A DNA stretch of 63,738 nt, counting the filler, from Thraustochytrium aureum (Eukaryota): assembly GCA_012862495.1 (NCBI GenBank). It is 6 parts of 6 records of this genome, joined end to end, with 100 filler letters (N's around TTAATTAATTAA, not from the genome) between each part and the next. Parts side by side here need not be neighbours in the genome. Positions count along the whole stretch, not along the records: positions 25,242 to 38,525 come from BLSG01000045.1; 5 more parts are not named here. The stretch is one strand, 5' to 3'. Position numbers and translations under genes: made by a program. Each line of letters opens with the position of its first letter. Within the stretch, counting starts at the first letter, position 1. The notes under the pieces are model-generated. The model did not search any database, had not been told where the DNA came from, and saw nothing but the letters and a program-made list of their open reading frames with translations. Below are positions 11,517 to 54,296 of the stretch, one piece after another.

Positions 11517-14500
11517 CTAGTGCGAGCCGAATCCGCGAGCAGCGCCTCGGCGTGGCAGGTTGGACTTGTACTGCTTGGAGAGCGCTGCCGCTTGCATATC
11601 TTGGAGGTCGCGATCAAGCAGAGCTGCGTTCCTCTGCTTCAACTTGGGCTTCGAAGTCACGTCCGTCTCCACCTTGAGCCTGCGGGTGACTCGGCGGACG
11701 CGGCTCGTCGCAATGTCGCGAAGTCGGTGGTGGATCTCCGGAAAGTCCTTGAGCGCCGACAGAAGCTCCTCTCGATACAGCACATACAGGATCGAGACAC
11801 AGGTGGAGCGCGCACTGGCTGTCCTGCGCACTGGCAGGAGCATAGCAACCTCGCCAAAGAAGCAGCCGTCTGAGATGTTGGCGATAACTGTGATCTCCGC
11901 CCGCGCTTGCGAGAACTGGGACGACGACATCACCGAATTGGTCCGTCCGTTTTTCTTCGCACCGAAAATCCTGTTTTGGCCCTGGCGCCCTTTGGGCGTT
12001 GCGCTGGGAGCATGCCCAGACCCCGACCGCGACCCGACACGGCCGTCCAGCGACTCTTCGGGGACTTCTTCGACAAAGATTTGCACCTTGCCCGAGGAAA
12101 TAAAGAACATGCAGTCGCCCGTCGTGCCCTCCTCGATGATGGTATCGTTTTCGAAGGCGACCATGGGATTGAGGCACATCGCGAGCGAAGAAATAAACCC
12201 GTTCCCGCTGTCTCGAAAGAACGGCACTTTGAGGAAGAGCTCACGCGAGGTGAAAATCATGATCTCGCGCCTTAGCGCCGGGCTCAGGTCCTTCATGATG
12301 GACTCTTCATTGAACACCTTGCCCTCCGTGTACCGCAACGCGAAATAGTCGCGAACCTTGTCGCGGAGCTGCGGCGGCAGGCCCTTGGACCGCATGTACT
12401 CGTTGAGCTGTTGCGCCTTCTCCTGGTACAGCCGCGAGGCAAAGTTCATGCTGAAGATGATGGACGAGATACTCGAGATCATGATGGCGTAGAACAGCGA
12501 CCCAGTGTACATGCAGACCAGCGTCACCCACATCTCAAAGGCGCACCAGTCGTCCTCGAGGTCTTGGCAAGTCATGTTGGTGATCGGCGGCGACTCGTAG
12601 CCGACGCCAATCATCTGCGCCAGGGCTTTGTAGAACGCCCAAGTGTACTGTTGGCGAACCCCCATTTGGTCGATCTTTGCCTGCACGACCCAGCTCGAGT
12701 CGGGAAAGTCCATGAGCCGACAAACCATGAACTGGATACAGCCGATCCAGTGCGCAAGAATAAGTAAAAGCATCCCCAGCTTGCCCATGCGGACCGTGCT
12801 CTCGTGCACTCGCCAGCGCAGCCTGGTCTCGAGAAATCGCCGCCATAGTTGCAGGTACTTTGCAGCGCGCCCAACGCGGAGGAGCCGGAAAAGCTTGGTT
12901 ATGCGGATGAGGCGAAAGAGCTTGAGGCTCTTGGCGCTCCGCGTAAAGGGATCTGTGCTCGCGTCGGCGTTAAAGTGCGAGATCACAAGGTCAATCGGTA
13001 CCGAGCTCAAGAGGTCGGGGACAAACCAGGTAGTTGCGTAGTGGGTTACGATCCACCAGCGCGACATCCGGATGATCCCGTCCTCGTCCACGTACCCGGT
13101 TCGAAAGTTCTTGAGGATGTCGAGGAGGAAGATGATGTCTACGCCGAGGTTGAATGAATATATTGCCTCGTTGATCTCCTCGAACGCCATCGTCAGCGGC
13201 AACGTGAGGACGGTCACCAGGAGGATTGCTGAGATGCACAGGTCCCACGCAACGTGCAGCGTACTTTGTGGGTGGATGACGTATTTGCTCTCCAGCTCGA
13301 GGAGCTCGAGCTCGTCGTAGACGTTTGCCAATGAGCTCTGCTTGGTCTTCATGGACTGAATCTGCTTGCTGATGCCGCTGATCCCTTGGAACCGCGCAAA
13401 ATCGAACAGATTTGCCATCGTGATGCCTTGTATGTGGTTTTGGCTCACGTTGAGAGAACCGACCACTTTGTGGTACCACTCGGCAAGCTCCACGAAGCTC
13501 ACGCCGCCGTTCAGGTCGTCGTCCACTTCCTCGAAGAAGCGCTTGATGTCGTCGTCCGACACGTCCGAGCCGAGCTCTAGCTGCAGGTACATGCCAAGCT
13601 CGCTGCTGTCGATCTCTCCGGACCCATCGCGGTCGTACCGCGTGAAGCTGGCCCACAGCTCGGGGTAGAGCTTTTTCATCTTGTCTTGGCGCTCTTTCAG
13701 CTCAAGCTCCAAGTGCGCCTCTGGGTTTACTGCGCGATCCTCGTACTGCTGCTTGCGCAGCGCAGTCTTGCTCGTCTGCACGCGATTGATGCTCTTCAGG
13801 TCCTCGATGAGCGACGACTGGGACCCAAGCAAAGCGCTAACAGGTGCCACGCTGACCTTTTTCTCGCCGGCGCCCAAAATGGAGAGACGCGGCAGCTTTT
13901 GCGTCGCGCGTTTGATCATGGACATCGCCCGACCGTCCGGCTTGGCGGCTCTGACTGCAGCTTGCTCGTTGGCCTCTCGGATCGCCTTCTCCGCCCCGAC
14001 CTTTCGGGCGCGGTCGGTGTCGACGCCGGCCTCGCGCATTGCAGCCGCCCTCTCGAAGATCGAGTTTCTCCGCATCATCTCCCGCTCCTCGAAGGACAGC
14101 GCTGTGGCCCTTCGTCGCTGGTTGGAGAGCTCGACGAGGGTTGCTTGCAAGGCGCGATCTTCTCTCGCCCTCCTCTCTTGCTCGTGCGGCGCCGGCGTGA
14201 TCTGCGGCAATTCATTGCGTCCGATGATTGGCGGCAGCGCAGGTCTGCTAGCTGCGCCTGTCGCGCCCGCGAGATAGGCAAAGGTGCTTTGGTTGCTCGC
14301 GAGCGCTTTTAAGAGCTGTGCGACCACGCGTTGGGTGCTCTGCTCGTCCAGCCTGAGCACGCCGCTGCAACATGAGCTGTCGGCGCCCGCGCCCTGGCCG
14401 TCTGTCTCAGCTCGGCGCCCTTTCGCCTGCTCCTCGTACTCTGTCCCGCTGCTGTCACAGCTCGCCGTTTCCAGCAAATCGAGCGAGACACCAAGTGACT

Positions 14501-14591
14501 GCGCAGGCGTGTTGAGCTGCTCCGACTCAAACTCTGCTCTACTCCTCCGCTTCCCGGCGCCAGGCGAGTTGGCCCTGCTTGGGCTCGACAT
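11517..14591 (-). CDS. HCN/CNG-like cyclic-nucleotide-gated cation channel with an N-terminal EF-hand pair
   Basis: EF hands DRDGSGEIDSSE and DDDLNGGVSFVE; YVIHP...WD, FRTGY, Arg/Lys-rich S4 (LKLFRLIRITKLFRLLRV), HWIGC, pore KALAQMIGVGYE, C-linker, CNBD FFGEVAML...RRTAS. Confidence 0.93.
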   Translation of the reverse strand: MSSPSRANSPGAGKRRSRAEFESEQLNTPAQSLGVSLDLLETASCDSSGTEYEEQAKGRRAETDGQGAGADSSCCSGVLRLDEQSTQRVVAQLLKALASNQSTFAYLAGATGAASRPALPPIIGRNELPQITPAPHEQERRAREDRALQATLVELSNQRRRATALSFEEREMMRRNSIFERAAAMREAGVDTDRARKVGAEKAIREANEQAAVRAAKPDGRAMSMIKRATQKLPRLSILGAGEKKVSVAPVSALLGSQSSLIEDLKSINRVQTSKTALRKQQYEDRAVNPEAHLELELKERQDKMKKLYPELWASFTRYDRDGSGEIDSSELGMYLQLELGSDVSDDDIKRFFEEVDDDLNGGVSFVELAEWYHKVVGSLNVSQNHIQGITMANLFDFARFQGISGISKQIQSMKTKQSSLANVYDELELLELESKYVIHPQSTLHVAWDLCISAILLVTVLTLPLTMAFEEINEAIYSFNLGVDIIFLLDILKNFRTGYVDEDGIIRMSRWWIVTHYATTWFVPDLLSSVPIDLVISHFNADASTDPFTRSAKSLKLFRLIRITKLFRLLRVGRAAKYLQLWRRFLETRLRWRVHESTVRMGKLGMLLLILAHWIGCIQFMVCRLMDFPDSSWVVQAKIDQMGVRQQYTWAFYKALAQMIGVGYESPPITNMTCQDLEDDWCAFEMWVTLVCMYTGSLFYAIMISSISSIIFSMNFASRLYQEKAQQLNEYMRSKGLPPQLRDKVRDYFALRYTEGKVFNEESIMKDLSPALRREIMIFTSRELFLKVPFFRDSGNGFISSLAMCLNPMVAFENDTIIEEGTTGDCMFFISSGKVQIFVEEVPEESLDGRVGSRSGSGHAPSATPKGRQGQNRIFGAKKNGRTNSVMSSSQFSQARAEITVIANISDGCFFGEVAMLLPVRRTASARSTCVSILYVLYREELLSALKDFPEIHHRLRDIATSRVRRVTRRLKVETDVTSKPKLKQRNAALLDRDLQDMQAAALSKQYKSNLPRRGAARGFGSH

Positions 14592-16515
14592 CTCGCCTGC
14601 GCTCGGTTCTCCCGCGGCGCTCCTTCCCAGCCCCGCTCACGCATGCACGCCCTGACAGCCGGCTTTCGCCCACATCGACAAACTGCAGTGTGCGAGCGCC
14701 CAGGGAACTGGGCCTTGTGCCAGGCGCAGCGCTGCGCGTTCGCAAGCAATCTCACCCCTGTTAGACCCTGGGAAGCTCTGCAACGCTTTGNNNNNNNNNN
14801 NNNNNNNNNNNNNNNNNNNNNNNNNNNNNNNNNNNNNNNNNNNNNNNNNNNNNNNNNNNNNNNNNNNNNNNNNNNNNNNNNNNNNNNNNNNNNNNNNNNN
14901 NNNNNNNNNNNNNNNNNNNNNNNNNNNNNNNNNNNNNNNNNNNNNNNNNNNNNNNNNNNNNNNNNNNNNNNNNNNNNNNNNNNNNNNNNNNNNNNNNNNN
15001 NNNNNNNNNNNNNNNNNNNNNNNNNNNNNNNNNNNNNNNNNNNNNNNNNNNNNNNNNNNNNNNNNNNNNNNNNNNNNNNNNNNNNNNNNNNNNNNNNNNN
15101 NNNNNNNNNNNNNNNNNNNNNNNNNNNNNNNNNNNNNNNNNNNNNNNNNNNNNNNNNNNNNNNNNNNNNNNNNNNNNNNNNNNNNNNNNNNNNNNNNNNN
15201 NNNNNNNNNNNNNNNNNNNNNNNNNNNNNNNNNNNNNNNNNNNNNNNNNNNNNNNNNNNNNNNNNNNNNNNNNNNNNNNNNNNNNNNNNNNNNNNNNNNN
15301 NNNNNNNNNNNNNNNNNNNNNNNNNNNNNNNNNNNNNNNNNNNNNNNNNNNNNNNNNNNNNNNNNNNNNNNNNNNNNNNNNNNNNNNNNNNNNNNNNNNN
15401 NNNNNNNNNNNNNNNNNNNNNNNCGAAGCACGTCTACCGCACGGTCAGGTCCTGGAAGGTCCTCTCGCGTCCTGCAGCGCCGTGCCGCGATGGAGGCCGC
15501 CGTCCTTGCTGCTCTGCGTCTTCCTTCCTGACGCGCCATACCGGTCATCTCCGCGCCCCCCTTTTTCCTCGCTTTAAAACCTCCCGAAATATACACTTTA
15601 CATTATACACCGATATTACCGACAGGCGTCCTTGGGGGGCACACGGCTACGCTGTGACGCAATTGGGGGTAGAGTTACGTACATACGCTCGCTCGCTTGG
15701 GGTGAAAGGGGGGTGAAAGGGGCGTGAAGTGACGCGATGGGCCCACTCGTGATGGCTGCAGCTTGTTTGTACAAGGTATTCAAGAGTCACCCGCTGCCCC
15801 TCATGGCCCCAGTCCCTGTGAGGAACGGATGTAACTCTTGAACAAGTGCACGTAACTCTTGAATGGTAGCACGGAGCGAGCAGTGAGGGGCACCCCTCTG
15901 AAACCGCCTTTCCGAGTGTGGCACTTGTCGGGCTGCCTTGCACTCTTGAACAGGATCGGCCAATTCCCCGCCTCTCGGCAAAACAAACGAGAGCGAGAGG
16001 AGTCAAGGCCTCCATCCCCCTCTATAAAGCAAGGTTTCCTTCACTAACGGACAATCCGAAACAGTCTCGGTGAATCTTCGCAAGTGTGAATAGCGACTTT
16101 CTTCCTGCTTTCCTCCTCACAAGGAGTACCCACCCACCTAGAGTACTTAGAGGTATACCTTTCCATTGAGTGAGTGTGGCAGGACACACGTGCTGTTGGC
16201 GAAGCAGAGCAGCAGCGCAGAGCAGCACGGAGCAGAGCAGGGCAGAGCAGCGCAGGACAGGGCAGAGCAGAGCGGCGAAGCGCGGCGCGGCGCCGGTCGA
16301 GCGGCCGCAGGCGTCTCCCTGCGAGCCCGCCGGAGCCCGGGCTCGCTGATCCTGGTTTGGCGGATTTTGCTGTCGTTTTCCTGGATTCTGCCACTCCAGC
16401 CAGGCCTCGTCAAGCGCGCGCGAGCCTGACTGACGGGGCTGACTGACGCTCGCGCGCGGCGCGGAGCGGCAGCGCGCGCCTGCCGCGAGCGGATGGGGCC
16501 GCGGGCAAGGCTGGG

Positions 16516-18554: not shown

Positions 18555-20580
18555 TCACAGCAAAACCTGGCGCTGCTCGCAGTCGAACGCGAGTACGCGC
18601 AGCACCGCGGCTGCAAGAGCCACATGGTCCACTGCAAGCGACGCGTAGCGCGCAAAAACCTGCGCCACAGCTTCCTGCCTGGCGCGGGAGATGTAAAGCC
18701 CAGGCCGGAGGCGCCGCGCGTCCAGGATAATCGCGCTGGCCATGCGCGGCGGCAGCGTTGGAGCATCTATATTGTTCCCGCGCAGGTCGAGAGTGCGCAA
18801 GGTGTTGTTCATTGCGAGGCCGTCGAGCAGCACGCTCAGGGGCGCCAGCACTTGGCGGCCCTCGTGCTTGCGGCGTGCCGGGAGCGGCTTTGAAGGCGCG
18901 CAGAGTGCCAAATCGCGCAAACCGAAGACGCGAAGGGAGCGAGTCGCCGCGAGCATTTCCGCGATTGCATGCACGCATGCAAGTGCCTCCTCCGGTGTGG
19001 CGGCGCGAAGGCGGTTCCCGGACAAGTCCAAGTCTGCCAGGCGGTACAGCCGACCGAGTCCGCCAACCGCTGTCGCGATGCTAGCCAGCCCGGCGTGCGA
19101 AAACCCAACATTTGCGAGCCCAAGGGATCTAATCCCTCGGTTGGCCTTGAGAATCCGCGCCAGGACCAGCACCCCACCGTCTTCTATCCTGTTGCCGTCG
19201 AGGCTGAGCTCCTGGAGCCCGCGGTGAAGCGCCAGGCTTGACTCGAGGACCCCTATGGAGCTGGCGCTCAAGTGGTTGCCCGCGAGGCACAACTTGCGCA
19301 GCCCGACGCACGAGCAGATCATATGCGATAGGGAAAAGGCACTCCGGTGCGTAAGCTTGTTGAACGAGAGGTCGACGTCGACAAGCGAGCTTTTAGGGAC
19401 GGAGAACCCGTGACCTGAGACAAACGCCTGGAATACTGTGTCGCCCAGCCCGTTGCGCGACAAACTGAACGCCTCAAGGAGGGGCAGCGTTTTTATAGAG
19501 CTCGAGAGCAGCACCGCGACTTGGGCGAGCTCTTCGTAGACAGGCCTGCCGGCGTCGTCCATGCGCTCCCAGCGACCGCGAGCGATCCAGTTCCCGGAGA
19601 GGTCCAGCCGTCGGAGCTTCTGGCACCCAGCTTTCACAGCCCTCAGCAGTGGCTCGAGATCCCCGGCAACCAGACCGCACTGCGGTACGCCAAAGTCTAA
19701 TAGCTCTGTCTGGTGAACCAAGGGCCGCGGCCAGTGCTTCTACGGCAGACTGCTCGCCGCGCTTGGACCGGAGCCCGACCGAGCGGAACCGGAGCGTGCG
19801 CGCACTGGTGAAAACCTCGAGCGCTTTGAGCAGGCCCAGCCGCTGGCCGGCCCACGAGTCCCGAACCTCCAGCTCAAAGACGCTGTCAAAAGACTCGACC
19901 CTGTGAAGAAGCGTCTTGAGGGGCCCCCCGCTCATTGTGCGCGCAAGCTCTTTCAGCGCCGTCGCTTCAATAGTCCTCTGCTGGTTGCGCGCGAGGCGAG
20001 CGGCTGTCTCCTCTTCCTCTCGGATGCGCCGCTGCATCTCCTCGACGAGATTCCCCACGCGGACCGCTTCGTGCCGCGACCGAACCATGGATTGGATTTT
20101 GGTGGCAGCCGCGACGCGCTCGGCGTGGCGCGCGCGCCCTGCAGCTTGTCGCGATGCGCTCACAGCGACGTAGCGCTCGATCAGGTCGTTGCGCATCTTC
20201 TCTTTGTATTGCAGCGCGTTCGCGCGCGTGCTTGCCTCGCTAGCGAGCGCGAGACGCGGGATGAGCCCGACGCGGGGCAGCGTGCCGAGCTCGCTCCGCA
20301 AGTTCACGACCGGCGGCAGCTCCTCAGACTCCGGCGCTGCTGCGTGTCCGCTGCGAAGGCGTCGCATCTGCTCGGCCTGCAGCTTGTTCTGCAGCAGCTT
20401 TTGCCTGCCCCGCTTCATCTTGGCCGCCTTGGCCTTGTCCGCTATCTCGCGTCGCCTTGCCTCTTGCTTGTCGCGCGCCGCACGGAGCTGCATGATCTTG
20501 TGCTTGCTCTCAGCGCCATCGCGATGCGCTCCGCTCACGTCTTCCATCGGGCCGCGCATTGTCGCGGCGCCAATGGCCAT
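18555..20580 (-). CDS. IQ-motif plus RNI-like leucine-rich repeat protein (frameshift near 19720)
   Basis: IQ motif AATKIQSMVRSRHE and coiled coil, then LRRs (LRRLDLSGN, LQELSLDGNRIEDGG, LADLDLSGN, LRTLDLRGN); ORFs 19474-20580 and 18555-19721 overlap. Confidence 0.8.
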
Positions 20581-29127: not shown

Positions 29128-30700
29128 TGAGCTGCTTCACGAATGCGCTGGCCACGGCCCCGTTGAAGCCGTTCTCGTTGTACAAAAAGTGCTCGAGGCG
29201 CTCGAGAAACTGGATCCGCGTTTCGATCGACCGCGAGTCGGCTTGCGAGACCCGGTACTCGTTGTGCACGAGAGCAGTGAGGCGGAAAGCGAGCTCCATC
29301 GAGGTCGTCGTCGCGTCGCGGAAGGCGAGGTAGTCGCGCTTGCCCAGCTTGCCCTGGCCTAGCGAGGCAGGCCCGTTGCGCGAGCCAGTGATCTGCTTCC
29401 AGATCTCCTCTGCGCGGCCAGGCGAGAGGTCTTGCTCAAAGGCAGCGTACTTTGAAAAGTAGGCCGATTTCGGCGTGTTGGGGCAGTCGGAGCGGAACGA
29501 GCGCAGGCCCAGCTTGACGTCCATGACGCTGACGGGCTCGAGCTCCGGGTTGGCGCCCTCGTCGCGCACGAGCATGGTCGCGTCGGAAATGACCAGCTCG
29601 CGGGGCGAAACCTCCTCGTTGACGCGCAGGAGTCGCGGCATGAAGCGCGTCAGCGCGTCCGGCGGCTGCGTCTCCCAGGCCCTGCGGTAAAAGGCCACCT
29701 CGTCGTCAAACTGCTCGGGCTTGTCCTCCTTCTTTACGAGCTCCCCGCCGTGCGAAGCGATGTTGCCATGAGCACCGCCGACCTGGGCCATGTTGCTGCT
29801 GGCGGTGATCTTGCCCATCGTGACTTGCAGGCAATGCTTGAGGAAGGTCAGCCCGTGAAGGTATCCCGCGTCCTTGCCGCCGTCCGAGATCTCGAAAATG
29901 TGCGCAAAGTCAATCATGCGCACGCGCACCTGGGGGGGCGCCCCGGCAGCGCCCTCGTACACAACCAGAAGCGAGCTGCCGTACATCCGCCACGTGGGAT
30001 ACTTGATGAGCATGGCTTCAATCTCGCTCAGGCGCTTGATGACCTCCTCGACCACGCTGTGGCGCACGACGCGGCCGTCGAAGAAGAACTGCTCGATCGC
30101 GTTTTGCATCGTCTCGGCAGTGATGCCCATGCACCACTCGCGCGACGACTTCCAGACCTGGCCGATGCTAGGCCGGTACACTTTCATGCCCACGATGCGG
30201 AATCCGATGGCCTCCTGCGGCGGGTACTTTTGGCGCTCGCGCTCGATCTTTGCCGCCGAGGCGGTCTCGTCGTACGTTTGCTGGCCCATTTTCAGGTCGA
30301 GCACGCAGGGCTCGCGCATGCCGTGGGTGAGGTTCTCCATCTTGAGGTACATCGCGTCGCCCACCTTTTCCTGGCCAAAGTACTTTGGGATAAACTCCTT
30401 GATCGGGTGGTTGTCCCGCGTCACCTGCGCGTAAAAGTCTGCCTCCAGCTCGCCGCGGCTCTTGCCCTTGCCGGGCTGCGCCGGCTGGAACGGCTTGAGG
30501 ATCTGCGCCCCGCGCATCAAGATTGGCGGCCCCTTGTCCTTTTTGCTCCCGTGCCCGCCCACAGCGTCCAGCTGCGACAGCTCGGACACCTGCGAGCTGC
30601 GCTTGCTCGCGGCGTCCTCCGCCGTGCCCTCTTGCTGCCTCTCCATCCGCTTCTTCAGCAGGTACATCGCGCCAGCCACAGCAGCGACGCAGCACGCGCC
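29128..30700 (-). CDS. Inositol polyphosphate kinase (IPK/IPMK family) with two tandem kinase domains; both ends in gaps
   Basis: Domain 1: FIPKYFG, MENLT, PCVLDLKMG (PxxxDxKxG), GFRIVG, SSLLVVY, MIDFAH, GYLHGL. Domain 2: EVAFY, FMPR, PVSVMDVKLG, AFRLTA. Confidence 0.9.
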
Positions 30701-31194
30701 NNNNNNNNNNNNNNNNNNNNNNNNNNNNNNNNNNNNNNNNNNNNNNNNNNNNNNNNNNNNNNNNNNNNNNNNNNNNNNNNNNNNNNNNNNNNNNNNNNNN
30801 NNNNNNNNNNNNNNNNNNNNNNNNNNNNNNNNNNNNNNNNNNNNNNNNNNNNNNNNNNNNNNNNNNNNNNNNNNNNNNNNNNNNNNNNNNNNNNNNNNNN
30901 NNNNNNNNNNNNNNNNNNNNNNNNNNNNNNNNNNNNNNNNNNNNNNNNNNNNNNNNNNNNNNNNCGCACGAGGCGCGCGAGAGCTTTCGTACTGCGTGCG
31001 GCTTGCACTCTCTAGAGCTACTCGCTAGAGCTCGAGAGAGAGAGAGAGTTCTTGTGGACTGTGTGCGGATTGCGGTGCTCGGCTCTGACGTCGACAGGAG
31101 CGCGTTGAGGAGGGACTCGGACAGCATGTTCGCGACCTCGACGAGCAGGTTTGATTGAACGCTTTTGAGAACGCTTGACTGATTGTTGAACGCT

Positions 31195-31283
31195 TGCTTG
31201 GTCGATTGATTGATTGATTTTGATTGATTGAATTGGATTGAACGCTTGATTGATTGATTGATTGATCGATCGATCGATCGATC
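31195..31283. repeat. (ATTG)n/(GATC)n microsatellite
   Basis: Imperfect GATT and GATC tetranucleotide runs. Confidence 0.85.
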
Positions 31284-31526
31284 CAGCTGTGCAGTGATGC
31301 TGGGCTTGCTGGGCCGGCCGGTTGTTGGCGCGCTCCATCGCGAAGTGGTTGTTGCTGGTGTTCTACTTATAAACGCTACCCACGGCTCGAGGACCTTGCG
31401 CTTGTTCGGCTTGGGGTTTGGCTTCTGCCCCGAGCAGAGGCAAGCCACGCCGCCTCGACGGCTTGCAGCTTGGGGGCGTGTGACCCCCCCGGCGCCCGTG
31501 GCGATGAGGGCGACTGACTCTGCTGG

Positions 31527-34500
31527 CTAGGCGGGCAGCTGGAAGTCGGCAGGCACGACGCCTTCGAGAAGAGGAACGATGCGCTGTCGCAGCGACTCCT
31601 GCACCTCGGGCAACTCGCGAGCCACGTCGTTCCGCCAGTAACGCTCCAGCCTTTCGCCCCGCAACTCGACCCACGCCCGCTCGAGGTCGCCACGGTCCCC
31701 GAAATAGCCTTGGCGTGGCGCGCGGTTTTGCGGGCAATTGGCAACGTGCTCGTGAGCGTCGTTGCCACAGTCCTGCAGACACCAGGCGCAAAAGTGGCAC
31801 CCACACCCGTTCCGTCCACAGGTGAGCGCAAAACAGCCTTGAAAGTCTGCGAAAACCTCCTCACACCGCGGGCAACTCAACGAAAGGATCTTGTCAGTGA
31901 TGTGATTCCAATGCCGCCGGACAATGAGCCCCATCTCCCCCTTGGCCAGCTCGGCCTCAAGCCGGGCCTTGAACTCGCGTTCCAAGTCCGCGCGGTGCTG
32001 GTCCTGAAGCCGCGCTTGGACATCTGCCCACGCCTCAGGGGAGGCCAGGCGCGCCAGCTCACTGCTCGGAATTACGTCGTCGCATACGCTGCAGGACACC
32101 GACCCATCGGGGGCGAGCCGCTCGCCTTGCAACGCACCGAGAAAGCCATCGAGGCACGACTCTTGACACACCGCGTGGCCTTGCGGGCAGCACGCTGCGC
32201 GCGCGCGGTCCACCTTGTCCATGCACGCCACGCAGTCGCGCACCTCCACCGCCGCACGATCGAAGAACGCCCGACCTCGCACGCCAGCCGCGCTTGGCCT
32301 GGCGGTCGGGTCGTCCGAGCACAGCTCCTCCACGAGGCTGGAAACGTCGTGGATGCCGTCGAAGAGCTCCGCGAGCAGCTTGCCGAACGCGTACATGTCG
32401 GCGCTGCTCCTCGCCGACGTCTCCGCCCCAGAAGCAACCTCAGGGGCGAGATATCTCAAGGTGACGTGCAGTGCCCGTGTGGCCGTAGCGTCAGCGTGCC
32501 GCACGCCGTCAAAGTCGCCGATCACAGCGCGGCCAGACGTGGTGAGCAGCACGTTTCCCGGCTTGATGTCCATGTGGACACACCCTGCTGCGTGCACGGC
32601 CGCGAGTCCGTCAAGCAGGTCGCACGCGATGCTCTTGCAGACCTCGACGCTGCGGGCCTGGCCCTCGTCGGTCAGGAGCCACTGGTCCAAACTGCCACGT
32701 TCGTAAAAGGGCATTACCAGAAACCCAAAGTGACCCTCGACGAAGACGCCCTGCACGCACACCACGAACGAGTTTCGAAGAGCCCGCAGCACGCCACACT
32801 GTCGGTAAAAGTGGCGCTGGCGGTCCTCGTCGCCGAGAAAGAAACGCTTGAGCACGACCGTTCCCCCGCGTGAATCGGTGGCTCGAACAACGGTCTTGCC
32901 ACTGACCGTCGCCAAGGTGTTTACGACGGCAAAGTCGCTCTCCTTTGCGTCGTCCAACCAAACGCCGCTGCGGCACAGCTCCGCGACGGGAAAACCCGCG
33001 CTGACGCGCAGCTTGAACAGAACAGCCTCGTCAAAGCGCTTTTCGGGAAAGTGCTGGAATACAATCTTGAGGATGCGCGATCGCTCATTGCGCAGCTCGC
33101 GCTCCACCCTCCACTGGGCACTCGAGGCGTCCAGCTCGACCAGCTCGCGCTGCAACTTTGCAATCTGCGCAATGGCTTCGGCGCGTACATCCGGGCTGTC
33201 CATGAATTTCAGGTCGTCCTCCAAGTCTTGTATCTGTTTCCGAAGCTCGTGTCGCTCCTCGCGGATCCTGAGGCTTGCGGCGCGCAGCTCTGCGACGCAG
33301 CCCTCGATCCGCGCAAAGCTGGGCTCGTTCTCACCGGCAACGACTTCGTCGAGCTTCAGCTTGGCTGCCTTGCGTTCGTCCTGCAGCGCTTCGAGCCGCC
33401 CGGGCACCCACTTGCCGTAAAACTCGGTGATCGCAGCCAAGGCGGCATAGACGAGCTCGACCGGTGCGTCGGCTTGCGGGTTGCGATCCTCCAGCGCAGC
33501 AATCTCTCGCCGCATCACTTCTCGTAAGCGGCTCAGCCACCCCTCCAGGCCGCTCAGGTCGTCTGGGTCCTGTAGAAGCGACTCAAGCGAAGGCGACGCT
33601 CCATCAAGCTCGCGCATCGTTGCTTCTGTGGCGTCTAGAAGACCACCAAGGTCGTGTTTGGACCTCCACAAGTCGATTTGCTCGAGCGTGACCTGGGCTG
33701 TCGCTTTCACCGCGCCGAAATCGTCTACTTCAGAGGTTGTCTTGGACTCGACGAATGGCTCGACAGTCTCCAACGCGGCTTGGGCTCTCGCGTTTGCGCG
33801 GACAGCGTCGATCTCGACGTCTCGCATCCTGCCGTCGAACGGGAAGGCGAGCGATTCTCGAAGGCTCGCTAGCAAGGTGGAGCGCGCCGCGTTGCGGCGC
33901 TCGACAGTTCCGACCAAGTCCTCCACATCAGGGCTATGAAGCACAGCCTGGAGCGCCTCCAGCTCAGCTGCTGACTCGCTCGCTTGTGCCAGGCTCTGCT
34001 CCAAGTCAGCCATGCGACTTAGCGGGTTGACGTGGGCCAAGACCTGGTCGAGGGCGGCTCTCGCGGCGTCAAGAAACTGGATCTCGCTATTCCTTCTCCC
34101 CCTGGCCAACTCGGAGGCGGACGAGTCGGGTGCGTGTACGAAAGCAATCAAAACACAGCTCCATTGCCGGGGTGCTGCCACGAAGCTCCGCCTCGAGCTT
34201 GGCTCGCGCTGCCTGCTCAGTCTGCTGCTCTTCTTGCTGGGCTGCTCTATCCTCACCGCCGGTTCCCTGACCTCGAGCTAGAATCGATTGGACCCGCTCT
34301 TGAAGGGGGCTCGACAGCTCGTTTCCAGAAAGGCTGTGTTGGGGTGGCCACTTTGTCAGCGATCGGCCCGGACCACACGTTTAAAAGCAGAGCCCTCCCG
34401 CGCGCGCTGTGACGCCCCCTGTCGTGACTTACTCCAAAGACGTCAGCGTCGAGTTGTGCAAGAGCGCCTCGGCCAGCGCTCCGCCTCCTACATCGGTGAT

Positions 34501-36681
34501 TGCATTGACCGGAAGACTGGCGACGAGTTCTCCCAGCATGTCAGCTAGCTGGCAAGCCGTGCAAAGAGTGGCGAGCCGGGGATCCAGCGCACCCGAAAGC
34601 AACCCGCTTCTGGAGGCTTTCCCTGCAACGACTTACCCCAGGCAAGTCAGCGTGGAGTTGGTTTCGAGCGCCTTGCCGAGCGCGGCAGCTCCCTCGTCGG
34701 AGATTTGGTTGAAACCAAGCCTGTTGGCGTTCACTCTTTCGTTAGCGGGCGAGAAGATTGCTCGCGATTCGTCGCAGAGGCCGTCTACTTACGACAACTC
34801 GGTCAGCGTCGAGTTGGTCTCAAGCGCCTTGCCAAGCGCGACTGCCCCTTCGTCCGAGATGTGGTTATCATGAAGGCTGGCGTCGTCGGGGGCATCAGAG
34901 CACGTTAGCAAAGGCTGCTGATCGAGCGCCGCCAGCGCCGTGTCTCGTCCCGCATGAACTTACTGCAGCACAGCCAGCGTGGAGTTGGTCTCGAGCGCCG
35001 CGCCGAGCGCGGTGGCATCGGCAGCGGAGATGCTCTGGCTAGAAAGGCTGTCACCGTGAGGCGAAACGCTCTGTTGTTAGCGGGGAAGGAGCCGGGTTGT
35101 ACCGGCGCGGTAGGTGCAGTGCGGCGCCCTGCCGCGACTTACTCGAACTCTGTTGCGCCTCGTTTCATCGCGCCCACCGTGAGCAGCGTGGCGATTCGAG
35201 ATTGCAGGTGATCGGAGATGTTGCCGTTGAAGAGGCTGTCGTCGGCGGCGCCGCCCATTAGCACGTCAGCTTTTGAGTGCGGCTGAGCGCGCCTCATCGC
35301 TACCAGCAGGTGCAGAGCGGTCCCTGCAACGACTTACTCGAGCGTCGTCAGCGTCGCGTTGGTCTTGAGCGCCTCGCATAGCGCTTCAACCCCTTCGTCG
35401 GAGATTTGGTTGAAACCAAGGCTGGCAGCGTTGATGAAGAGCATGGAATTGCTCGGATTCTTCGTCAGCGGGCCAGACCCTTCGTAGTCGCAACAACCCT
35501 CGCACTGCACCAACCTACCCTAGCTCAGTCAGCGTCAAGTTGTTCTCGACCGCCGTGGCAAGCGCGGCGACTCCAAAGTCGGAGATGAGGTTCAAACCAA
35601 GGCTGTGGGTGTGTGTTCGATGGCGTTGGTGAGCAGGCCGGATCGCCTCCGTCAGCGAGCGAGAATGAGCAAGTGACGCGGCAGTGCAAGCATGTCGAGC
35701 GCGGATCCAGCACACTCGACAGTCCGCCCGCACTGACGCCTCGCAACGACGTACTTGAGCTTTGTCAGCGTCGAGTTGGTCTCAAGAGCCTTGCCGAGCG
35801 TAGCAGCTCCTTCATCGGTGATTTGGTTCTGCTCGAGACTGTTGATAATCGTGGGGAGGAGGGTTTCGAGCCCGGCTTGTCAGCAAACGAAACGAAAACG
35901 GACGAGCCGGCAGCATGTATTCGACAGTTCGACGGCCACCCAACTCATTCAGACGCTCCAAGCCGACTTACTCCAGCGCCGTCAGCGTCGAGTTGTTCTG
36001 GAGCACATTGCCGAGCGCTGCGGCACCATCGTCGGAGATTTTGTTCTCTTGAAGGCTGCATTCGTTCGTTTTTGCGTCGATACCAATGCGTCAGCGAGCC
36101 TCAAAAATGTAAGGTAGCCTTGAAAACAGCACGGCGTTCTGAGCGCGAAGTGGAGAACGCTGCGCGCTGCGACGCCTTGCAAACAAGACACCTTACTTTA
36201 GTTCAGTCAGCGTCGAGTTGGATTCGAGCGCCTCGGCCAGCGCGAACGCCCCTTCATTGGAGATGCTGTTACCCTGGAGACTATTGGCATTCAGTTTGTT
36301 TTTGATTTGTTTTGTCCCGAAGCCCGTAGCGAACGTCAGCGCGCGTCTCGAAAAAGTCTGTGCTTGCGAGCAGGTCGGCGCTGCGGGGGCACAGAAGAGC
36401 CGCACAGCAAACAGGACGTACCTCAGTTCAGTCACCGTCGAGTTGGTCTTGAGCACCTCGGCCAGCGCGACCGCCCCTGCCTCGTCAACCTCGTTGTTGT
36501 CGAGCCTGCGACCGCGTTGTTAGCCATCTACTCGACCGCATCAAACAAAACCTCCACGACAAAGCCCTCCACCACGCAAACAAGCCCTCCACCGCAAGCC
36601 CGAGGCCACTTACTCGATCCTCCTCTCCCCGCGCTGCGCCGCGCCCACGGCGTCCTCCACGTCCGTCGCCGTGTACCCCAT
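31527..36681 (-). CDS. Multi-exon LRR - coiled coil - protein kinase - RING - Rcat/IBR-like protein
   Basis: Exons, all bounded by GT-AG and phase 2: 36614-36681 (ATG; MGYTATDVEDAVGAAQRGERRI), 36422-36505, 36197-36280, 35972-36055, 35755-35838, 35519-35602, 35338-35421, 35143-35235, 34964-35047, 34793-34876, 34637-34720, 34433-34516. The terminal exon starts at 34333, with a frameshift or small intron near 34090-34160. Kinase motifs VVLKRF, HMDIKPGN, GDFD, YLAPE, DMYAFG; RING CVAC...CPQGHAVC..SC...CSVC; then CPRC...FQGCFALTC...CGCHFCAWC...H. Confidence 0.88.
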
Positions 36682-47813: not shown

Positions 47814-49390
47814 CGGCTCTTTCGAGCGTGTTCAACCCAATCGTGCTCCCACTGTTCCTGAGCGACGTGGGGTTCCAGAGCTGGACCTCGTACTGTTCGA
47901 GCTGTTGAGTCTCCTCAAATGGAAGTTTGAGCACAGTATGCTCCACAGCACGCTCGAAATGTCGTTGCGAGGGCCGCGTCTGCGGCTCTTCTTCGATAGG
48001 CTCGAGGCCAAGATCAGCGCGCATGTCGGCACGCTTCCGGCCTTTCCTGGACGTGCTCGACTCTCCAATGCTCGCGGTGCGCGAAACTGAGGGCCGGCAA
48101 GCCTTTGACACAAAAGTTCAAGAGCAGCTCAAGAGGAACGGCGGCGTCATGCGCGTCGAGCACCTGATAGAGGACGAAGATGGAAAGTCCTGGTGGCTCG
48201 ACCAATTTGGCTGTTCAACATACGCCGTGGCGTGGGCCAAGTTTGAGGACAGGCTCGCCAACCACCCAGACGAACACGTCAGGACCCTCGCGGGGCACCC
48301 TGAAGTCCTGGGCACACTGCGGGAGACGATCAGCCCGCAACAGCGCAAGGCAGTGACGCTGTTCCAGTGGAGCGAGTTTCTCTGGTCGTACGGCCCAGGA
48401 GTCCGAGTTGCTCTCATCCAGATGATCGCGTCTTCAAGAAGCGCGCCTTGGTTTGCGGGGGCGCTCAGCTACGACGAAGCGCGTTCGGTGCTCACGCCGT
48501 TTCCGGGCGGGACTTTTCTCATCCGATTCAGCGAATCTGCAGTTTGCACATGGGCTGTCTCATATGCGAACGAGGTGACTGGTGTAATCAATCACGCGCT
48601 GGTACAGGCCGTCTCGCCGGACCCGTTAAGGCCTGGCGGCGCGGGCCCCGACGACTACTACTTTAGATGCGGGCAAAAGCGCTACCGGTCGTTTGCCGAG
48701 ATTGTGGCGGTCAACGCGGGCCAGCTCCGGCACCCGGCGCCGAACGTTAAAAACTTGGGACCAGCGCGGTGCTTTCGCGATTTTTTGACGTTTGAGGAGG
48801 CGGAGGACATGCTGCGCGGGCAGCGAGCAGGCACCTTCCTGATTCGGTTCAGTATCAACCAGGAGGGGTGCCTCGTCGTCGCCTACGTGACCGCGGAGGG
48901 GGCCATTTTGCAGTCCAAGATTTACTGCGAGCCAGAGCGCGGCTTCGTGCTTGGCGGCCAGGTCTACAAGCGCATCCCTGACATGATCAAGCAGAATCGA
49001 ACCAAGCTCCGCTACCCGCTCGCCGTCCAGTACGGCGGCGGCTGGCTCGACCTCGACGCAGAGGACATGGATGAGACGATTATGTCGAATCACGTGGGCG
49101 CGCGCGAGCGCCGCGCAGAGAGCGGCAATTATGGCGCGCTTGACGCCGCTGGCTCGATGCGCATGTCGGCTGAAGCAACCTACCTGCCTCTCGGCGAGGT
49201 GACCCATTCAGACGGCTGGCCGGCGGACAAGTACTACGACGCTTCTTCTGCCTACGGCTCCGTTGCGCTGCCAGGAGACGACGCCTACGATAATGCCGCC
49301 TACTGTGACGTCTACGGTCCAGTCGGGCTTAGCGCCGGTCTGAGCGACCCAGGCTCGCACGAGGACGTGTACTGGCCAGTGCAACAGTAG
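47814..49390 (+). CDS. Tandem SH2-domain protein with a Tyr-rich C-terminal tail; 5' end in gap
   Basis: WFAGALSYDEARSVL...GTFLIRFSES and FRDFLTFEEAEDML...GTFLIRFS (FLVRES-like, conserved Arg); the preceding helical region VTLFQWSEFLWSYGP resembles the EF-like segment found before Cbl/Shk-type SH2 domains. Confidence 0.88.
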
Positions 49391-50253: not shown

Positions 50254-52851
50254 NGCCGCGTGTGCAGTTTGCGTGGAACAGCGGGGACGCTGCCAAGCCC
50301 AAGCCGCAGACGAGCGGCCCCCCCGCGGCCCTTTCTCCAAGGCTGCGGCGGAGAGCGTGCCGAACCCGTACAACTACGAGGCGCTCAGCGGGAACGAGTC
50401 GATCAACAGCCTCCGCGTGGACGCTGCCAAGCTCGACTGGTCGCAGCCCACGGACGAGTACCCCGCCGAGTACCCGTACTTTGTGCGTGGTCGCGACTCG
50501 GTGCGCGAGTACATCATCGAGCTGTTCACGCGCGAGATTGCCATGTACGACGGCGCCATGGGCACCATGATCCAAAACTACTCCAAGGACCACACGCTTG
50601 GCGAGGAGGAGTACCGCGGCGAGCGGTTCAAGGACTGGGCCTCCTCCGTGAAGGGCAACAACGACCTTCTCACGCTGTCGCAGCCGCACATCATCAAGGG
50701 GATCCACACCCAGTACCTCGAGAGCGGGTCGCAGCTGATCGGGACCAACACGTTCAGCTCCACCACGATCGCACAAGCGGACTACAAGATGGAGAAACTC
50801 GCGTACGAGCTCAACTACCACGGCGCGCGCCTGGCGCGCGAGGCATGCGACGAGATGACCGCCAAGGACCCGACTCGCCCGCGCTTTGTCGTCGGCGCCC
50901 TCGGCCCCACGAACCGGACGGCCTCCATCTCGCCGGACGTCGAGGACCCCGCCGGCCGCAACGTCACCTTTGACGAACTCGTCGAGGCGTACTTTGAGCA
51001 GGTCGTCGGTCTGATGGACGGCGGGGCCGATATCCTGATGGTCGAGACGATCTTCGACACGCTCAACGCCAAGGCGGCACTGTTTGCCATCACCAAGTAC
51101 CTCGACGAGACCGAGCTGGACGTCCCGGTGTTTGTGAGCGGCACGCTCGTCGACCAGAGCGGGCGCACGCTCTCTGGGCAGACCGGCGAGGCGTTCTACA
51201 CCTCGATCCGCCACGTTCGGCCGATGTGCGTGGGGCTCAACTGCGCGCTCGGCGCGCAGCAAATGTTCCCCTTCCTGGAGCGCCTCTCGAAGATCGTCGA
51301 GTGCTACGTACACGTGTACGCGAACGCAGGCCTCCCGAATGCGATGGGCGGCTACGACGACACGCCCGCCGACATGGCCAAGTACAACACGCCGTTCTTC
51401 GAGGGCAACTTTATCAACATGGTTGGTGGCTGCTGCGGCAGCACGCCGCCGCACATTGCGGCCCTCGCCCAGTGCATCAAGGAGAACGAGTTCAAGCCGC
51501 GCGAGCTCCCCGCGCTCGGCCAGCCCAAGATGTGGCTGTCAGGCCTCGAGCACCTCATTGTGGANNNNNNNNNNNNNNNNNNNNNNNNNNNNNNNNNNNN
51601 NNNNNNNNNNNNNNNNNNNNNNNNNNNNNNNNNNNNNNNNNNNNNNNNNNNNNNNNNNNNNNNNNNNNNNNNNNNNNNNNNNNNNNNNNNNNNNNNNNNN
51701 NNNNNNNNNNNNNNNNNNNNNNNNNNNNNNNNNNNNNNNNNNNNNNNNNNNNNNNNNNNNNNNNNNNNNNNNNNNNNNNNNNNNNNNNNNNNNNNNNNNN
51801 NNNNNNNNNNNNNNNNNNNNNNNNNNNNNNNNNNNNNNNNNNNNNNNNNNNNNNNNNNNNNNNNNNNNNNNNNNNNNNNNNNNNNNNNNNNNNNNNNNNN
51901 NNNNNNNNNNNNNNNNNNNNNNNNNNNNNNNNNNNNNNNNNNNNNNNNNNNNNNNNNNNNNNNNNNNNNNNNNNNNNNNNNNNNNNNNNNNNNNNNNNNN
52001 NNNNNNNNNNNNNNNNNNNNNNNNNNNNNNNNNNNNNNNNNNNNNNNNNNNNNNNNNNNNNNNNNNNNNNNNNNNNNNNNNNNNNNNNNNNNNNNNNNNN
52101 NNNNNNNNNNNNNNNNNNNNNNNNNNNNNNNNNNNNNNNNNNNNNNNNNNNNNNNNNNNNNNNNNNNNNNNNNNNNNNNNNNNNNNNNNNNNNNNNNNNN
52201 NNNNNNNNNNNNNNNNNNNNNNNNNNNNNNNNNNNNNNNNNNNNNNNNNNNNNNNNNNNNNNNNNNNNNGCATGCTATCCTCGAGAGCGGCATGGACGTC
52301 GGCATCGTCAACGCCGCCGAACTGATGTCGGCGTCCGAGGTCGATGCGGAGCTTCTGCCGATCTGCGAGGACCTCGTCTTTAACCGTACCCCAGAGGCCA
52401 CCGAGCACATGCTGGACGCCACAACCAAAGAAAAAGAGCGCCTGCAGAAGCTCAAGGAGGGCGGAGACGCTGGGCCGAGGTGAAGAAGGACGCGTGGCGC
52501 TCACTTCCAGTCAAAGAGCGTCTATCCCACGCCCTTGTGAACGGCATCCCGCAGTACATCGACGGCGACGTTGAGGAGTGCCGCAAGCAAGTGGGCCGCC
52601 CCTTGAACGTGATCGAAGGCCCGCTCATGGACGGCATGAACATTGTGGGCGATCTCTTTGGCTCCGGCAAGATGTTTTTGCCGCAGGTGATCAAGTCTGC
52701 CCGCGTGATGAAAAAGGCTGTGGCATACCTCCTGCCGTTCATGGAGAAGGAGAAGGAAGACAACCTCATTGCGCAGGGCATCGACCCTTCCACGGTGGCG
52801 GAGGACGACGACTCGGCCTTTGCTGGAAAGGTGCTGATGGCCACCGTCAAG

Positions 52852-52883
<32 letters not shown>

Positions 52884-54296
52884 CGGCATCGTTCTACAGT
52901 GCAACTCGCTCAAGGTGATTGACATCGGGGTGATGTGCTCCTGCGAGGACATTCTGGCCGCCGCCAAGCAGCACAATGTGGACGTGATCGGGCTCTCCGG
53001 GCTCATCACGCCTTCGCTCGAGGAGATGGTCCATGTCGCAAAGGAGATGAAGAAGGCGGGCTTTACCGTTCCGCTCCTGATCGGCGGTGCCACCACGAGC
53101 AAGACGCACACCGCCGTCAAGGTCTCGCCCAACTACACATCGGCGCAGCACCCGGTCATCCATGTCCTTGATGCCTCGCGCGCTGTGACGGTCGTGCAAA
53201 ACCTGCTCGGCGACGGCAAGGCTGACTATGTCGAGGACATCCTCGAGGACTACGAGGAGATCCGCGAGGACTATTACGCCGGCCTGGAGGAGCGCAAGTA
53301 CCTGACCTTTGACAAGGCGCAAAAGCTGTCCAAGCCGATCGACTTTGTGTCTCGGCCCCCTGCTGCGGCGCCCAACTCGGGCTTCGGCGCCCAAAAGGCC
53401 CCGCCGTGCAAAATCGAGGAGGTGCTCCCGTACATTGACTGGAACCCCTTTTTCCAGACGTGGGAGCTCCGTGGAACGTACCCGAACCGGTCGTACCCCA
53501 AGATTTTCGAGGACAAGCGCGTCGGGTCGGAGGCGAAGAAGCTCTTTGACGACGCACAGGCGATGATCACGCAGATCGTCAATGACGGGTCCATGTGGCT
53601 TGCCGGCGCGCTCGCCTTTTACCCGGCCAACCGCAGCGCCGACGGCGAGGACGTCGTGCTCTACGAGGACGAGTCGCGCACCACGGAGAAGGGCCGCTTC
53701 TGCATGCTTCGGCAGCAGGCGCAGAAAGAGAGTGACGAACCCATGATGAGCCAGGCGGACTTTATCGCGCCAGCCGGCCACAAGGACTACCTCGGCATGT
53801 TTGCGGTCGCCTGCCACGGCTGCGACGATCTCGCCAAGAAGTTTGAAGAGGACAACGACGATTACAGCAAGATCCTCGCCCAGGCGCTCGCTGACCGCTT
53901 CGTGGAGGCTTACGCTGAAAGCTTCACCATGACATTCGCGTCAAGCTGTGGGGTTACGCCAAGGACGAGACCCTGGCGCACGAGGACCTGCTCAAGGTCA
54001 AGTACGACGGGATCCGCCCGGCGCCGGCATACCCGAGCCAGCCCGACCACACGGAGAAGGACACGCTCTGGAGCCTGCTGGACGCAGAGAACCTTGCCGC
54101 CATGAAGCTGTCCTCGAGCTACTCGATGCTTCCCGCCTCGTCGGTCTCCGCGCTGGTCTTCGCGCACCCTGACTCGGAGTACTTTGCTGTTGGCCAAATC
54201 TGCAAAGACCAGGTCGAGAGCTATGCCGCTCGCAAAGGGCAGTCCGTCGAGTTTGTCGAGAAGTGGCTCGCCCAGAACCTCGCATACGACAACTAG
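50254..54296 (+). CDS. METH: Cobalamin-dependent methionine synthase (internal gap; frameshifts near 52475 and 53925)
   Basis: [66 protein letters not shown] (DxHxxG), [17 protein letters not shown]; activation domain [21 protein letters not shown]. Confidence 0.97.

What the first reader, a model, noticed from the sequence alone, without database searches (positions are those of the whole stretch)
31527..34333. Unusual effector module: cytosolic LRR sensor fused to coiled coil, atypical kinase, RING and Rcat-like domain
The LRR array splices onto about 400 aa of helical/coiled-coil sequence, then a kinase with HMDIKPGN and APE but DFD in place of DFG and a degenerate Gly-rich loop. After that come a RING and a CPRC...FQGCFALTC...CAWC domain resembling RBR RING2/Rcat: the catalytic-position Cys is kept, the usual His is absent, and no intervening IBR is visible. 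No signal peptide or TM helix is seen. Inference: an intracellular receptor coupling ligand recognition to both phosphorylation and ubiquitination, an NLR-like logic without a NACHT or NB-ARC domain.
Basis: partly seen in the sequence, partly recalled or inferred. Interest (0 to 1): 0.78.

Follow-up and report, generated by a model that had tools for sequence, protein, structure and literature searches.

The report
Protist receptor with IBR-less RBR ligase
This protist gene joins a leucine-rich-repeat array, a kinase and a Parkin-type ubiquitin-ligase module that lacks the family's usual middle (IBR) domain; the same module is fused to many other sensor-like domains in protists, so it is likely an overlooked class of intracellular immune receptors that tag their targets with ubiquitin.

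Summary
It has a cap exon, 11 phase-2 LRR exons and a long last exon: helical rod, kinase, RING1, 51-aa helix, Rcat-like domain. A frameshift breaks the window copy; contigs from two studies lack one base there, so it is probably an assembly error or allele. The RING is RBR-type RING1 and the last domain aligns to RING2 of parkin, CUL9 and ARIH1. AlphaFold (pLDDT 91) shows one helix where the IBR should be. The module is not a one-off: 147 sequences were gathered (protists where named). The catalytic-position Cys is present in 132 of 132 non-redundant members; the +2 His never is. Three RNA-binding relatives keep an IBR. The module is fused to kinases (50 of 147), SF1/ZNFX1-like helicases (about 24) and CCCH fingers. 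Within one kinase clade the front end is LRR, ankyrin or WD40. Likely a cytosolic sensor with a kinase switch and a thioester E3; activity, ligand and immune role are inferred. Not an RBR or NLR by definition. No description was found in the papers searched.

The parts
36614..36681 (-). Exon 1: ATG and LRR N-cap (22 aa)
   Evidence: by eye resembles the N-terminus of Hondaea P0004
34433..36505 (-). LRR array: ten 84-nt phase-2 exons (36505-36422, 36280-36197, 36055-35972, 35838-35755, 35602-35519, 35421-35338, 35047-34964, 34876-34793, 34720-34637, 34516-34433) and one degenerate 93-nt exon (35235-35143); one 28-aa RI-like repeat per exon
   Evidence: exon borders match spliced paralogue joints
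34087..34333 (-). Start of last exon: last partial LRR and linker; this frame stops at 34089-34087; the frame shift most likely lies in 34087-34209
   Evidence: table 8 records 5 and 16
32943..34130 (-). All-helical rod of about 400 aa ending in the conserved H-F/Y-P-E helix that abuts the kinase; no known family
   Evidence: AlphaFold model, mean pLDDT 85; homologous in 11 other family members at E<1e-4; no Atlas hit above 0.75
32262..32933 (-). Non-RD eukaryotic-type kinase domain: Lys477 (32849), alphaC Gln493 (32801), HMD Asp570 (32570), DFD Asp588 (32516), APE611; Gly loop degenerate (P0001 numbering)
32082..32234 (-). RBR-type RING1 (C682 C685 C697 H701 C704 C708 C729 C732), followed by its helical extension
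   Evidence: parkin RING1 Z 7.2, rmsd 2.9, 87 residues aligned
31887..32039 (-). Single 51-residue helix in the place of the IBR
   Evidence: H78-128
31734..31874 (-). Rcat/RING2-like domain: C802 C805 C820 C825; catalytic-position C815 (31835); Ala817 for His; second site C830 C833 H842 C848 with extra C837 and H844
31527..31694 (-). Two C-terminal helices and stop codon

Best explanation
This spliced protist gene, frameshifted in the window copy but likely intact in nature as a 1268-aa protein, is predicted to be a cytosolic sensor whose LRR array would bind a ligand and, through the helical rod and kinase domain, would switch on a C-terminal RING1-helix-Rcat ubiquitin ligase. Shown: exon structure, domain order, RBR-type RING1, RING2-like domain with the Cys at the catalytic position, one helix in place of the IBR, family-wide conservation, and front-end swapping. 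Inferred: RING1 binds E2~Ub; ubiquitin passes to Cys815 as a thioester and then to the bound target or the receptor itself. The helix must bend, or a second chain must act in trans, to bring the two sites together. The DFD, non-RD, alphaC-Gln kinase is a low-activity or tightly gated switch. The role is cell-autonomous defence, marking microbes or viral proteins for destruction. The organism is likely a labyrinthulomycete (nearest named homologues are from Hondaea; not determined).
For: RING1 matches: parkin RING1 E 1.3e-5 and HOIL-1 and KIAA0161 by profile; parkin, HOIL-1, ARIH2 and HOIP RING1 by structure, Z 5.2-7.2; top Foldseek hit RNF216/E2~Ub, E 3.7e-4. Last domain matches RING2, not IBR: parkin Rcat E 0.002 with C815 on the catalytic Cys; CUL9 RING2 23.6 bits; parkin RING2 15.7 vs IBR 5.9 bits. 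L051, L069 and P0213 carry a Pfam IBR in front of this same domain, so it holds the RING2 slot. C815 is Cys in 132 of 132 non-redundant members and in 28 of 28 loci that do not match the Cys-containing search pattern, while neighbouring positions vary. His-less RING2 enzymes are active (HOIL-1, 10.1101/2022.11.13.516300; RNF216, PMC7458406). Animal ZNFX1 uses a RING-like domain plus a catalytic-Cys domain in an RBR-like two-step mode (10.1101/2025.10.14.682297, 10.1101/2025.09.05.674436), and this module ends protist SF1/ZNFX1-like helicases. Immune-like traits: one-repeat phase-2 exons as in Tetrahymena LRR genes (PMC6564038); 7-9 different residues among 10 exons at exposed positions against invariant scaffold Leu/Asn; LRR, ANK and WD40 front ends in one alphaC-Gln clade of 15 (SH-aLRT 98, quick tree); 38 of 50 kinases non-RD.
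Against: No activity of any kind is shown. No transcript bridges LRR and kinase exons of this gene, and the place of the missing base was not displayed. Z-scores under 8 are weak on their own, and Foldseek TM-scores over the whole module are low (0.25 for the top hits) because the domain arrangement differs from RBRs. The IBR holds donor and allosteric ubiquitin in known RBRs (PMC7458406), and a rigid 51-aa helix may keep RING1 far from Cys815. Extra conserved ligands (C837 in 118 of 132; H844 His 126, Cys 5) suggest a further metal site that could use C815. The alphaC Glu and Gly loop are lost. Many partners (DEAH11-like RNA-binding domains, CCCH, UBA, ARM) need not be immune. pN/pS near 1 at two exposed LRR positions (0.71/0.67) is near saturation and fits relaxed selection as well. 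The tree is the quick one; the careful search did not finish.
Confidence: 0.55

Rival explanations
1. Same receptor, but the kinase domain is a non-catalytic nucleotide-sensing switch (pseudokinase), so the only enzymatic output is ubiquitination.
For: alphaC Glu is Gln in all 15 members of the clade, the Gly loop is degenerate, DFG is DFD. L009 (LRR-bearing) reads HAN and NFD at the two catalytic Asp sites. P0131 has the Rcat module after an H-F-P-E helix with no Pfam kinase.
Against: Lys, catalytic Asp/Lys/Asn and the Mg-binding Asp are kept: Lys in 42 of 45 aligned kinases; H, D, K, P, N near-invariant in A5. MNK1/2 are active DFD kinases (PMC3326643 passages). 24 of 45 family kinases keep the Glu.
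Confidence: 0.3
2. The module is a one-step RING ligase or an adaptor; the last domain is a structural zinc knot and C815 is a metal ligand, not a nucleophile.
For: No IBR; +2 His absent in 132 of 132; extra conserved Cys/His (C837, H844) need partners.
Against: C815 aligns on the catalytic Cys of parkin and with the GC motif of CUL9 RING2. It is never replaced by His, unlike ligand positions 820 and 844. The RING is of the RBR RING1 type, which in known RBRs favours transfer to a Cys (PMC7458406 section 4).
Confidence: 0.15
3. The window copy is a frameshifted pseudogene or two genes (a 415-aa LRR protein and a separate kinase-ligase).
For: In-frame stop at 34089 as written; no branch-point motif for a rescuing intron in 34256-34087; several homologues start in the helical region without repeats (P0002, P0003, P0188, P0193).
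Against: Two contigs from two studies lack one base in the right interval; all other exons are open and in phase; fused homologues exist (P0004, L009). X1 may be the window's own source, so it is not fully independent.
Confidence: 0.12
4. An active ligase, but for housekeeping (RNA or protein quality control, development) rather than defence.
For: IBR-keeping relatives carry DEAH11-like RNA-binding domains; other partners are CCCH, RRM, UBA and ARM.
Against: Paralogue expansion (four Hondaea copies; many paralogous LRR exons in runs X1-X3), front-end swapping within a clade and exon-per-repeat LRRs fit fast-evolving recognition.
Confidence: 0.2

Closest known systems
RBR E3 ligases (parkin, HHARI/ARIH1, CUL9, HOIL-1, RNF216)
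   Same: RING1 of RBR type with helical extension; RING2/Rcat-like domain with the Cys at the catalytic position; His-less site as in HOIL-1 and RNF216
   Different: No IBR: a 51-aa helix instead; Ala/Ser at +2; DCG-DAHxH-xxxC second zinc region with extra ligands; fused to a kinase and repeats
ZNFX1 (and RNF213) RZ-type immune E3s
   Same: RING-like E2-binding domain plus separate catalytic-Cys zinc domain, no IBR described, controlled by a nucleotide-binding domain in the same chain (passages); this module ends protist SF1/ZNFX1-like helicases
   Different: Catalytic domain here is RING2-like, not RZ (no RZ Pfam hit in any scan); regulator is a kinase and the sensor an LRR array
LRSAM1
   Same: LRR sensor plus C-terminal RING that ubiquitinates bacteria for autophagy (abstract of PMC11863841; domain order recalled)
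   Different: LRSAM1 has no kinase and no catalytic-Cys domain (recalled)
Leishmania TKUL
   Same: Thioester E3 with an integrated regulatory kinase domain (one passage of PMC13196369); TPR front end recalled
   Different: HECT rather than RING1-Rcat
NLRs, ROCO/LRRK kinases and plant LRR receptor kinases
   Same: Repeat sensor joined to signalling domains; non-RD kinase (link to immunity seen only as the title of Dardick and Ronald 2006 in a reference list)
   Different: No NACHT/NB-ARC, no ROC-COR, no transmembrane helix
[quoted passage not shown]
   Same: One repeat per exon, phase-2 introns, mostly without TM, proposed defence role (PMC6564038)
   Different: 84-nt exons and a kinase-E3 tail

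Membership tests
RBR E3 ligase | RING1 with canonical RING fold | tested here: met
RBR E3 ligase | IBR zinc domain between RING1 and RING2 | tested here: not met
   One helix in the model at pLDDT about 85-97; no Cys between C732 and C802 in P0001; IBR pattern in 2 of 127 family members with RING1 visible, plus P0213 by Pfam; the sample leans to IBR-less relatives
RBR E3 ligase | RING2/Rcat with a Cys at the catalytic position | tested here: met
   Pfam IBR_2 only E 0.026, below its cut-off
RBR E3 ligase | His two residues after the Cys (common, not universal) | tested here: not met
   Ala 128, Ser 4 of 132
RBR E3 ligase | E3~Ub thioester formation | not testable with these tools
   needs an assay
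Active eukaryotic protein kinase | Lys (VAIK), Asp (HxD), Asn, Asp (DFx), APE | tested here: met
   K477, D570, D588, APE611; kinase fold
Active eukaryotic protein kinase | alphaC Glu and Gly-rich loop | tested here: not met
   Q493; no GxGxxG
Active eukaryotic protein kinase | Phosphotransfer | not testable with these tools
   needs an assay
NLR (STAND) | NACHT or NB-ARC NTPase | tested here: not met
   No such Pfam hit at E<=1 in P0001 or the linker; the region between LRR and kinase is modelled as all-helical
RI-like LRR protein | 28-aa repeats LxLxxNxI...LxxNxxLxxL | tested here: met
   Seen directly in the exons; homologue P0004 hits Pfam LRR_6; the window's spliced LRRs were not scanned with Pfam
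LRR receptor-like kinase | Signal peptide and one TM helix | tested here: not met
   hydropathy scan only
ROCO/LRRK | ROC-COR tandem | tested here: not met
   no Pfam hit in P0001

The most novel reading that the evidence does not exclude
RING1-helix-Rcat is an undescribed, IBR-free class of thioester-forming E3 ligase. It arose from the DEAH11-like RNA-binding RBR lineage and spread across protist supergroups as a plug-in effector of cell-autonomous immunity. It is wired to shuffled LRR, ankyrin or WD40 sensors through a gated kinase, or to ZNFX1-like RNA helicases in place of the animal Miz-RZ pair: a NACHT-free receptor system that marks invaders directly, perhaps on non-protein targets as HOIL-1 does.
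Probability: 0.4. Interest if true: 0.85.

Novelty: new variant of a known kind. Interest (0 to 1): 0.7.

Why it matters
The IBR is part of the definition of RBR ligases and holds ubiquitin during catalysis. A natural family of over 100 members that keeps RING1 and the catalytic Cys but replaces the IBR with a helix makes it directly testable whether the IBR is needed, and whether transfer can work in trans. It also offers candidate intracellular immune receptors for microbial eukaryotes, whose defences against giant viruses and bacteria are poorly known. And it suggests that the design 'RING plus catalytic Cys controlled by a nucleotide-binding domain' of ZNFX1 and RNF213 arose more than once. 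Pfam scans leave the module almost unannotated (no hit reaching its cut-off for the window's module), which may be why it was missed.

Tried and rejected
No whole genome is held, so paralogues were not counted. No listed run is on record as RNA; X2/X3 are guessed RNA and hold spliced LRR joints. The place of the missing base could not be displayed. Homodimer prediction of the module: no verdict, score 0.05, alignment not used; no evidence either way. Viral contigs: 0 of 24 pattern matches confirmed. Prokaryote genomes: 0 of 49. One Nucleocytoviricota Atlas cluster at 0.91 is a lead only. The 1.84-billion representative search never ran (queue full, 5 tries). Helical rod: no family from Pfam or the Atlas (best 0.75); the Foldseek list was all kinases, so its fold is untested, not shown to be new. 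A rescuing intron was considered: one donor-like GTGAG at 34256, but no CTRAY branch site between it and 34087, and both contigs run through colinearly over the part they cover. The reading 'RING1-IBR, RING2 lost' was rejected because IBR-bearing relatives have this domain third and it scores better with RING2. Earlier findings of this scan: nothing returned. Literature: searches listed no paper on this module or architecture; subscription papers and all supplements were not seen and may describe it. PMC1331981 is not held.

Full report
Gene structure. The finding's coordinates cover only the last exon of a minus-strand eukaryotic gene. Upstream lie ten exact 84-nt AG..GT exons in phase 2, each coding one 28-aa RI-like LRR, a degenerate 93-nt exon and a 68-nt start exon at 36681. 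The 11 introns tabulated are 72-152 nt, each with a CTRAY motif 22-59 nt from the acceptor (two borders there were one base off and corrected). Contigs of runs X2 and X3 (RNA by guess) carry paralogous LRR sequences joined without introns. All 12 joints displayed table 5c (10 more not shown) have exactly the letter count predicted from these exon borders: 9 checked, 3 by hand. So this exon family is spliced at these borders; no displayed contig joins this gene's last LRR exon to its kinase exon.

The frame join. Spliced as written, the protein stops after 415 aa at 34089; the kinase frame is one base out. In one search table 8, a near-identical X1 contig covers 270 window bases with 269 letters and an X2 contig covers 283 with 282, each with one gap; their overlap is 33985-34209. 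Of 225 single-base omissions there, 123 (34087-34209) give one 1268-aa frame and 102 would break the conserved frame. The simplest reading is an extra base in the window (assembly error or allele), about 80%. The exact place was not displayed, and X1 may be the window's own source. Independent support for the fusion: Hondaea P0004 has cap, LRR_6 repeats, helical region, kinase, RING and Rcat in one annotated protein, and L009 has LRR_6, kinase and the module in one uninterrupted ORF.

The ligase module. AlphaFold on a 14-row alignment gave mean pLDDT 91.3, pTM 0.70: a RING, short helices, one 51-residue helix, a zinc-finger-like domain and two helices. The RING matches RING1 of RBR ligases by profile (parkin E 1.3e-5) and by structure (parkin Z 7.2, rmsd 2.9, 87 aligned; ARIH2, HOIL-1 and HOIP lower; Z under 8 is modest). 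Foldseek's one hit under 1e-3 is the RNF216/E2~Ub complex, and the top 13 rows are all RBRs, though TM-scores are about 0.25. The last domain aligns to parkin Rcat (E 0.002) with C815 on the catalytic Cys. It scores better with RING2 than with IBR in parkin (15.7 vs 5.9 bits) and matches CUL9 RING2 (23.6 bits), which assigns H842 and C848 as the second-site ligands. The Atlas lists two unnamed eukaryotic clusters first (0.96, 0.95), then RBR clusters.

A family, not a one-off. Three protein searches and one metagenome scan (217 confirmed stretches, best 80 kept, 50 distinct ORFs) gave 147 sequences, 132 non-redundant at under 90% identity in the core. C815 is Cys in 132 of 132; position +2 is Ala 128, Ser 4; H842 131; H844 His 126, Cys 5; C837 118. 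One scan pattern contained that Cys, so I counted apart the loci that do not match it: 28 of 28 have Cys. Of 127 members with RING1 visible, 2 show an IBR pattern (L051, L069) and Pfam adds P0213; 17 had no RING1 in view and 3 were not parsed. The search favours IBR-less relatives, so this share is a floor. The three carry RNA-binding domains (two DEAH11-like by Pfam) and have the same Rcat subtype in third place, which fixes its identity as RING2. It also suggests origin by IBR loss; the direction was not tested. Named sources span Hondaea, Salpingoeca, Balamuthia, Diacronema, Chromera, Chrysophaeum and Durusdinium. None was confirmed in viral contigs or prokaryote genomes. By motif, 50 of 147 carry a kinase and 24 an SF1 helicase (one counted in both). 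Pfam also shows CCCH, RRM, UBA, ARM, ubiquitin-like, HECT and a ZNFX1 domain.

The kinase. Lys477, HMD-Asp570, Asn, DFD-Asp588 and APE are present; the Gly loop is degenerate and the alphaC Glu is Gln. Family-wide, 36 of 50 have DFD and 38 of 50 are non-RD. Of 45 aligned kinase-module pairs, 24 have alphaC Glu and 15 Gln. The 15 form one clade (SH-aLRT 98, quick tree only) whose front ends are LRR (window, P0004), ankyrin (P0198) or WD40/beta-propeller (L001; P0203 weakly); others begin in the helical rod and may be cut at introns. MNK1/2 show that DFD kinases can be active and auto-inhibited (PMC3326643, passages). I put phosphotransfer at about even odds. The 400-aa rod is all helices and has no recognised family.

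LRR variation. Across the ten regular exons (58-77% identical), scaffold Leu and Asn are invariant while exposed positions take 7-9 residues. pS/pN is 0.67/0.71 at the two positions after the first Leu against 0.37/0.21 elsewhere. This fits diversified recognition but is near saturation and uses paralogous repeats.

Mechanism. Most likely: ligand on the LRRs relieves inhibition through the rod and kinase; RING1 recruits E2~Ub; ubiquitin passes to C815 and on to a target. In RBRs RING1 holds E2~Ub open for transfer to the RING2 Cys, and the IBR binds donor and allosteric ubiquitin; RNF216 works without the His (PMC7458406, passages and section 4). HOIL-1 lacks it too and uses a His from a binuclear zinc cluster (10.1101/2022.11.13.516300, passages). 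The six conserved ligands C830, C833, C837, H842, H844 and C848 could form a similar cluster; this is inference. ZNFX1 shows an RBR-like two-step transfer from a RING-like domain to an RZ Cys, possibly in trans, under control of its helicase (10.1101/2025.10.14.682297 and 10.1101/2025.09.05.674436, passages), and the present module sits at the C-terminal end of protist SF1/ZNFX1-like helicases. Functional analogues are LRSAM1 (PMC11863841, abstract) and TKUL (PMC13196369, one passage). Tetrahymena gives the precedent for exon-per-repeat LRRs (PMC6564038, passages and section 27).

Verdict. It works like an RBR or ZNFX1-type thioester ligase wired to a repeat sensor. It is not a member of the RBR family as defined (IBR not met), nor an NLR, ROCO or receptor-like kinase. 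Six searches of the held library (listings only) showed no description; subscription journals and supplements were not seen. New variant of a known kind; interest 0.70.

Noticed in passing
window 60057-61235 + (with ORF 58449-59954 + upstream): Roc-COR (ROCO) gene: Pfam Roc E 3e-20, COR-A E 6e-13; another candidate recognition gene in this window.
   Followed up: no
window 648-4865 -: 1406-aa ORF with a Plavaka transposase domain, E 8.5e-19.
   Followed up: no
window 18558-19739 -: A second LRR ORF with no 84-nt exons.
   Followed up: no
window 11520-14636 -: Ion channel with EF-hands in front and a cyclic-nucleotide-binding domain behind.
   Followed up: no
window 47909-49387 +: ORF with an SH2 domain, E 1.7e-15.
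   Followed up: no
window 50255-54102 +: B12-dependent methionine synthase in two ORFs either side of an N gap.
   Followed up: no
window 29129-30700 -: Downstream neighbour: inositol polyphosphate kinase that seems by eye to carry a second, IPK-like domain (D-V-K-L-G motif).
   Followed up: no
L046:2-4129: Kinase, HECT-like domain and RING1-Rcat in one ORF: two thioester-type E3 modules.
   Followed up: no
L009:6277-9768: Intron-free LRR-helical-kinase-RING-Rcat ORF whose kinase lacks both catalytic Asp residues (HAN, NFD): a clear pseudokinase member.
   Followed up: partly
L013, L019, L025, L027; P0155 (Salpingoeca), P0124 (Diacronema): SF1/ZNFX1-like helicases ending in RING1-helix-Rcat (no RZ hit in the Pfam scans); L013 also has a ubiquitin-like domain.
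   Followed up: partly
window 34637-36505 -: Summed contig depth on LRR exons is up to about 100-fold that on unique parts of the last exon in X1, from many paralogous exons; not a copy number.
   Followed up: no
window 31140-31290: (TTGA)n/(GATC)n microsatellite just past the stop codon.
   Followed up: no
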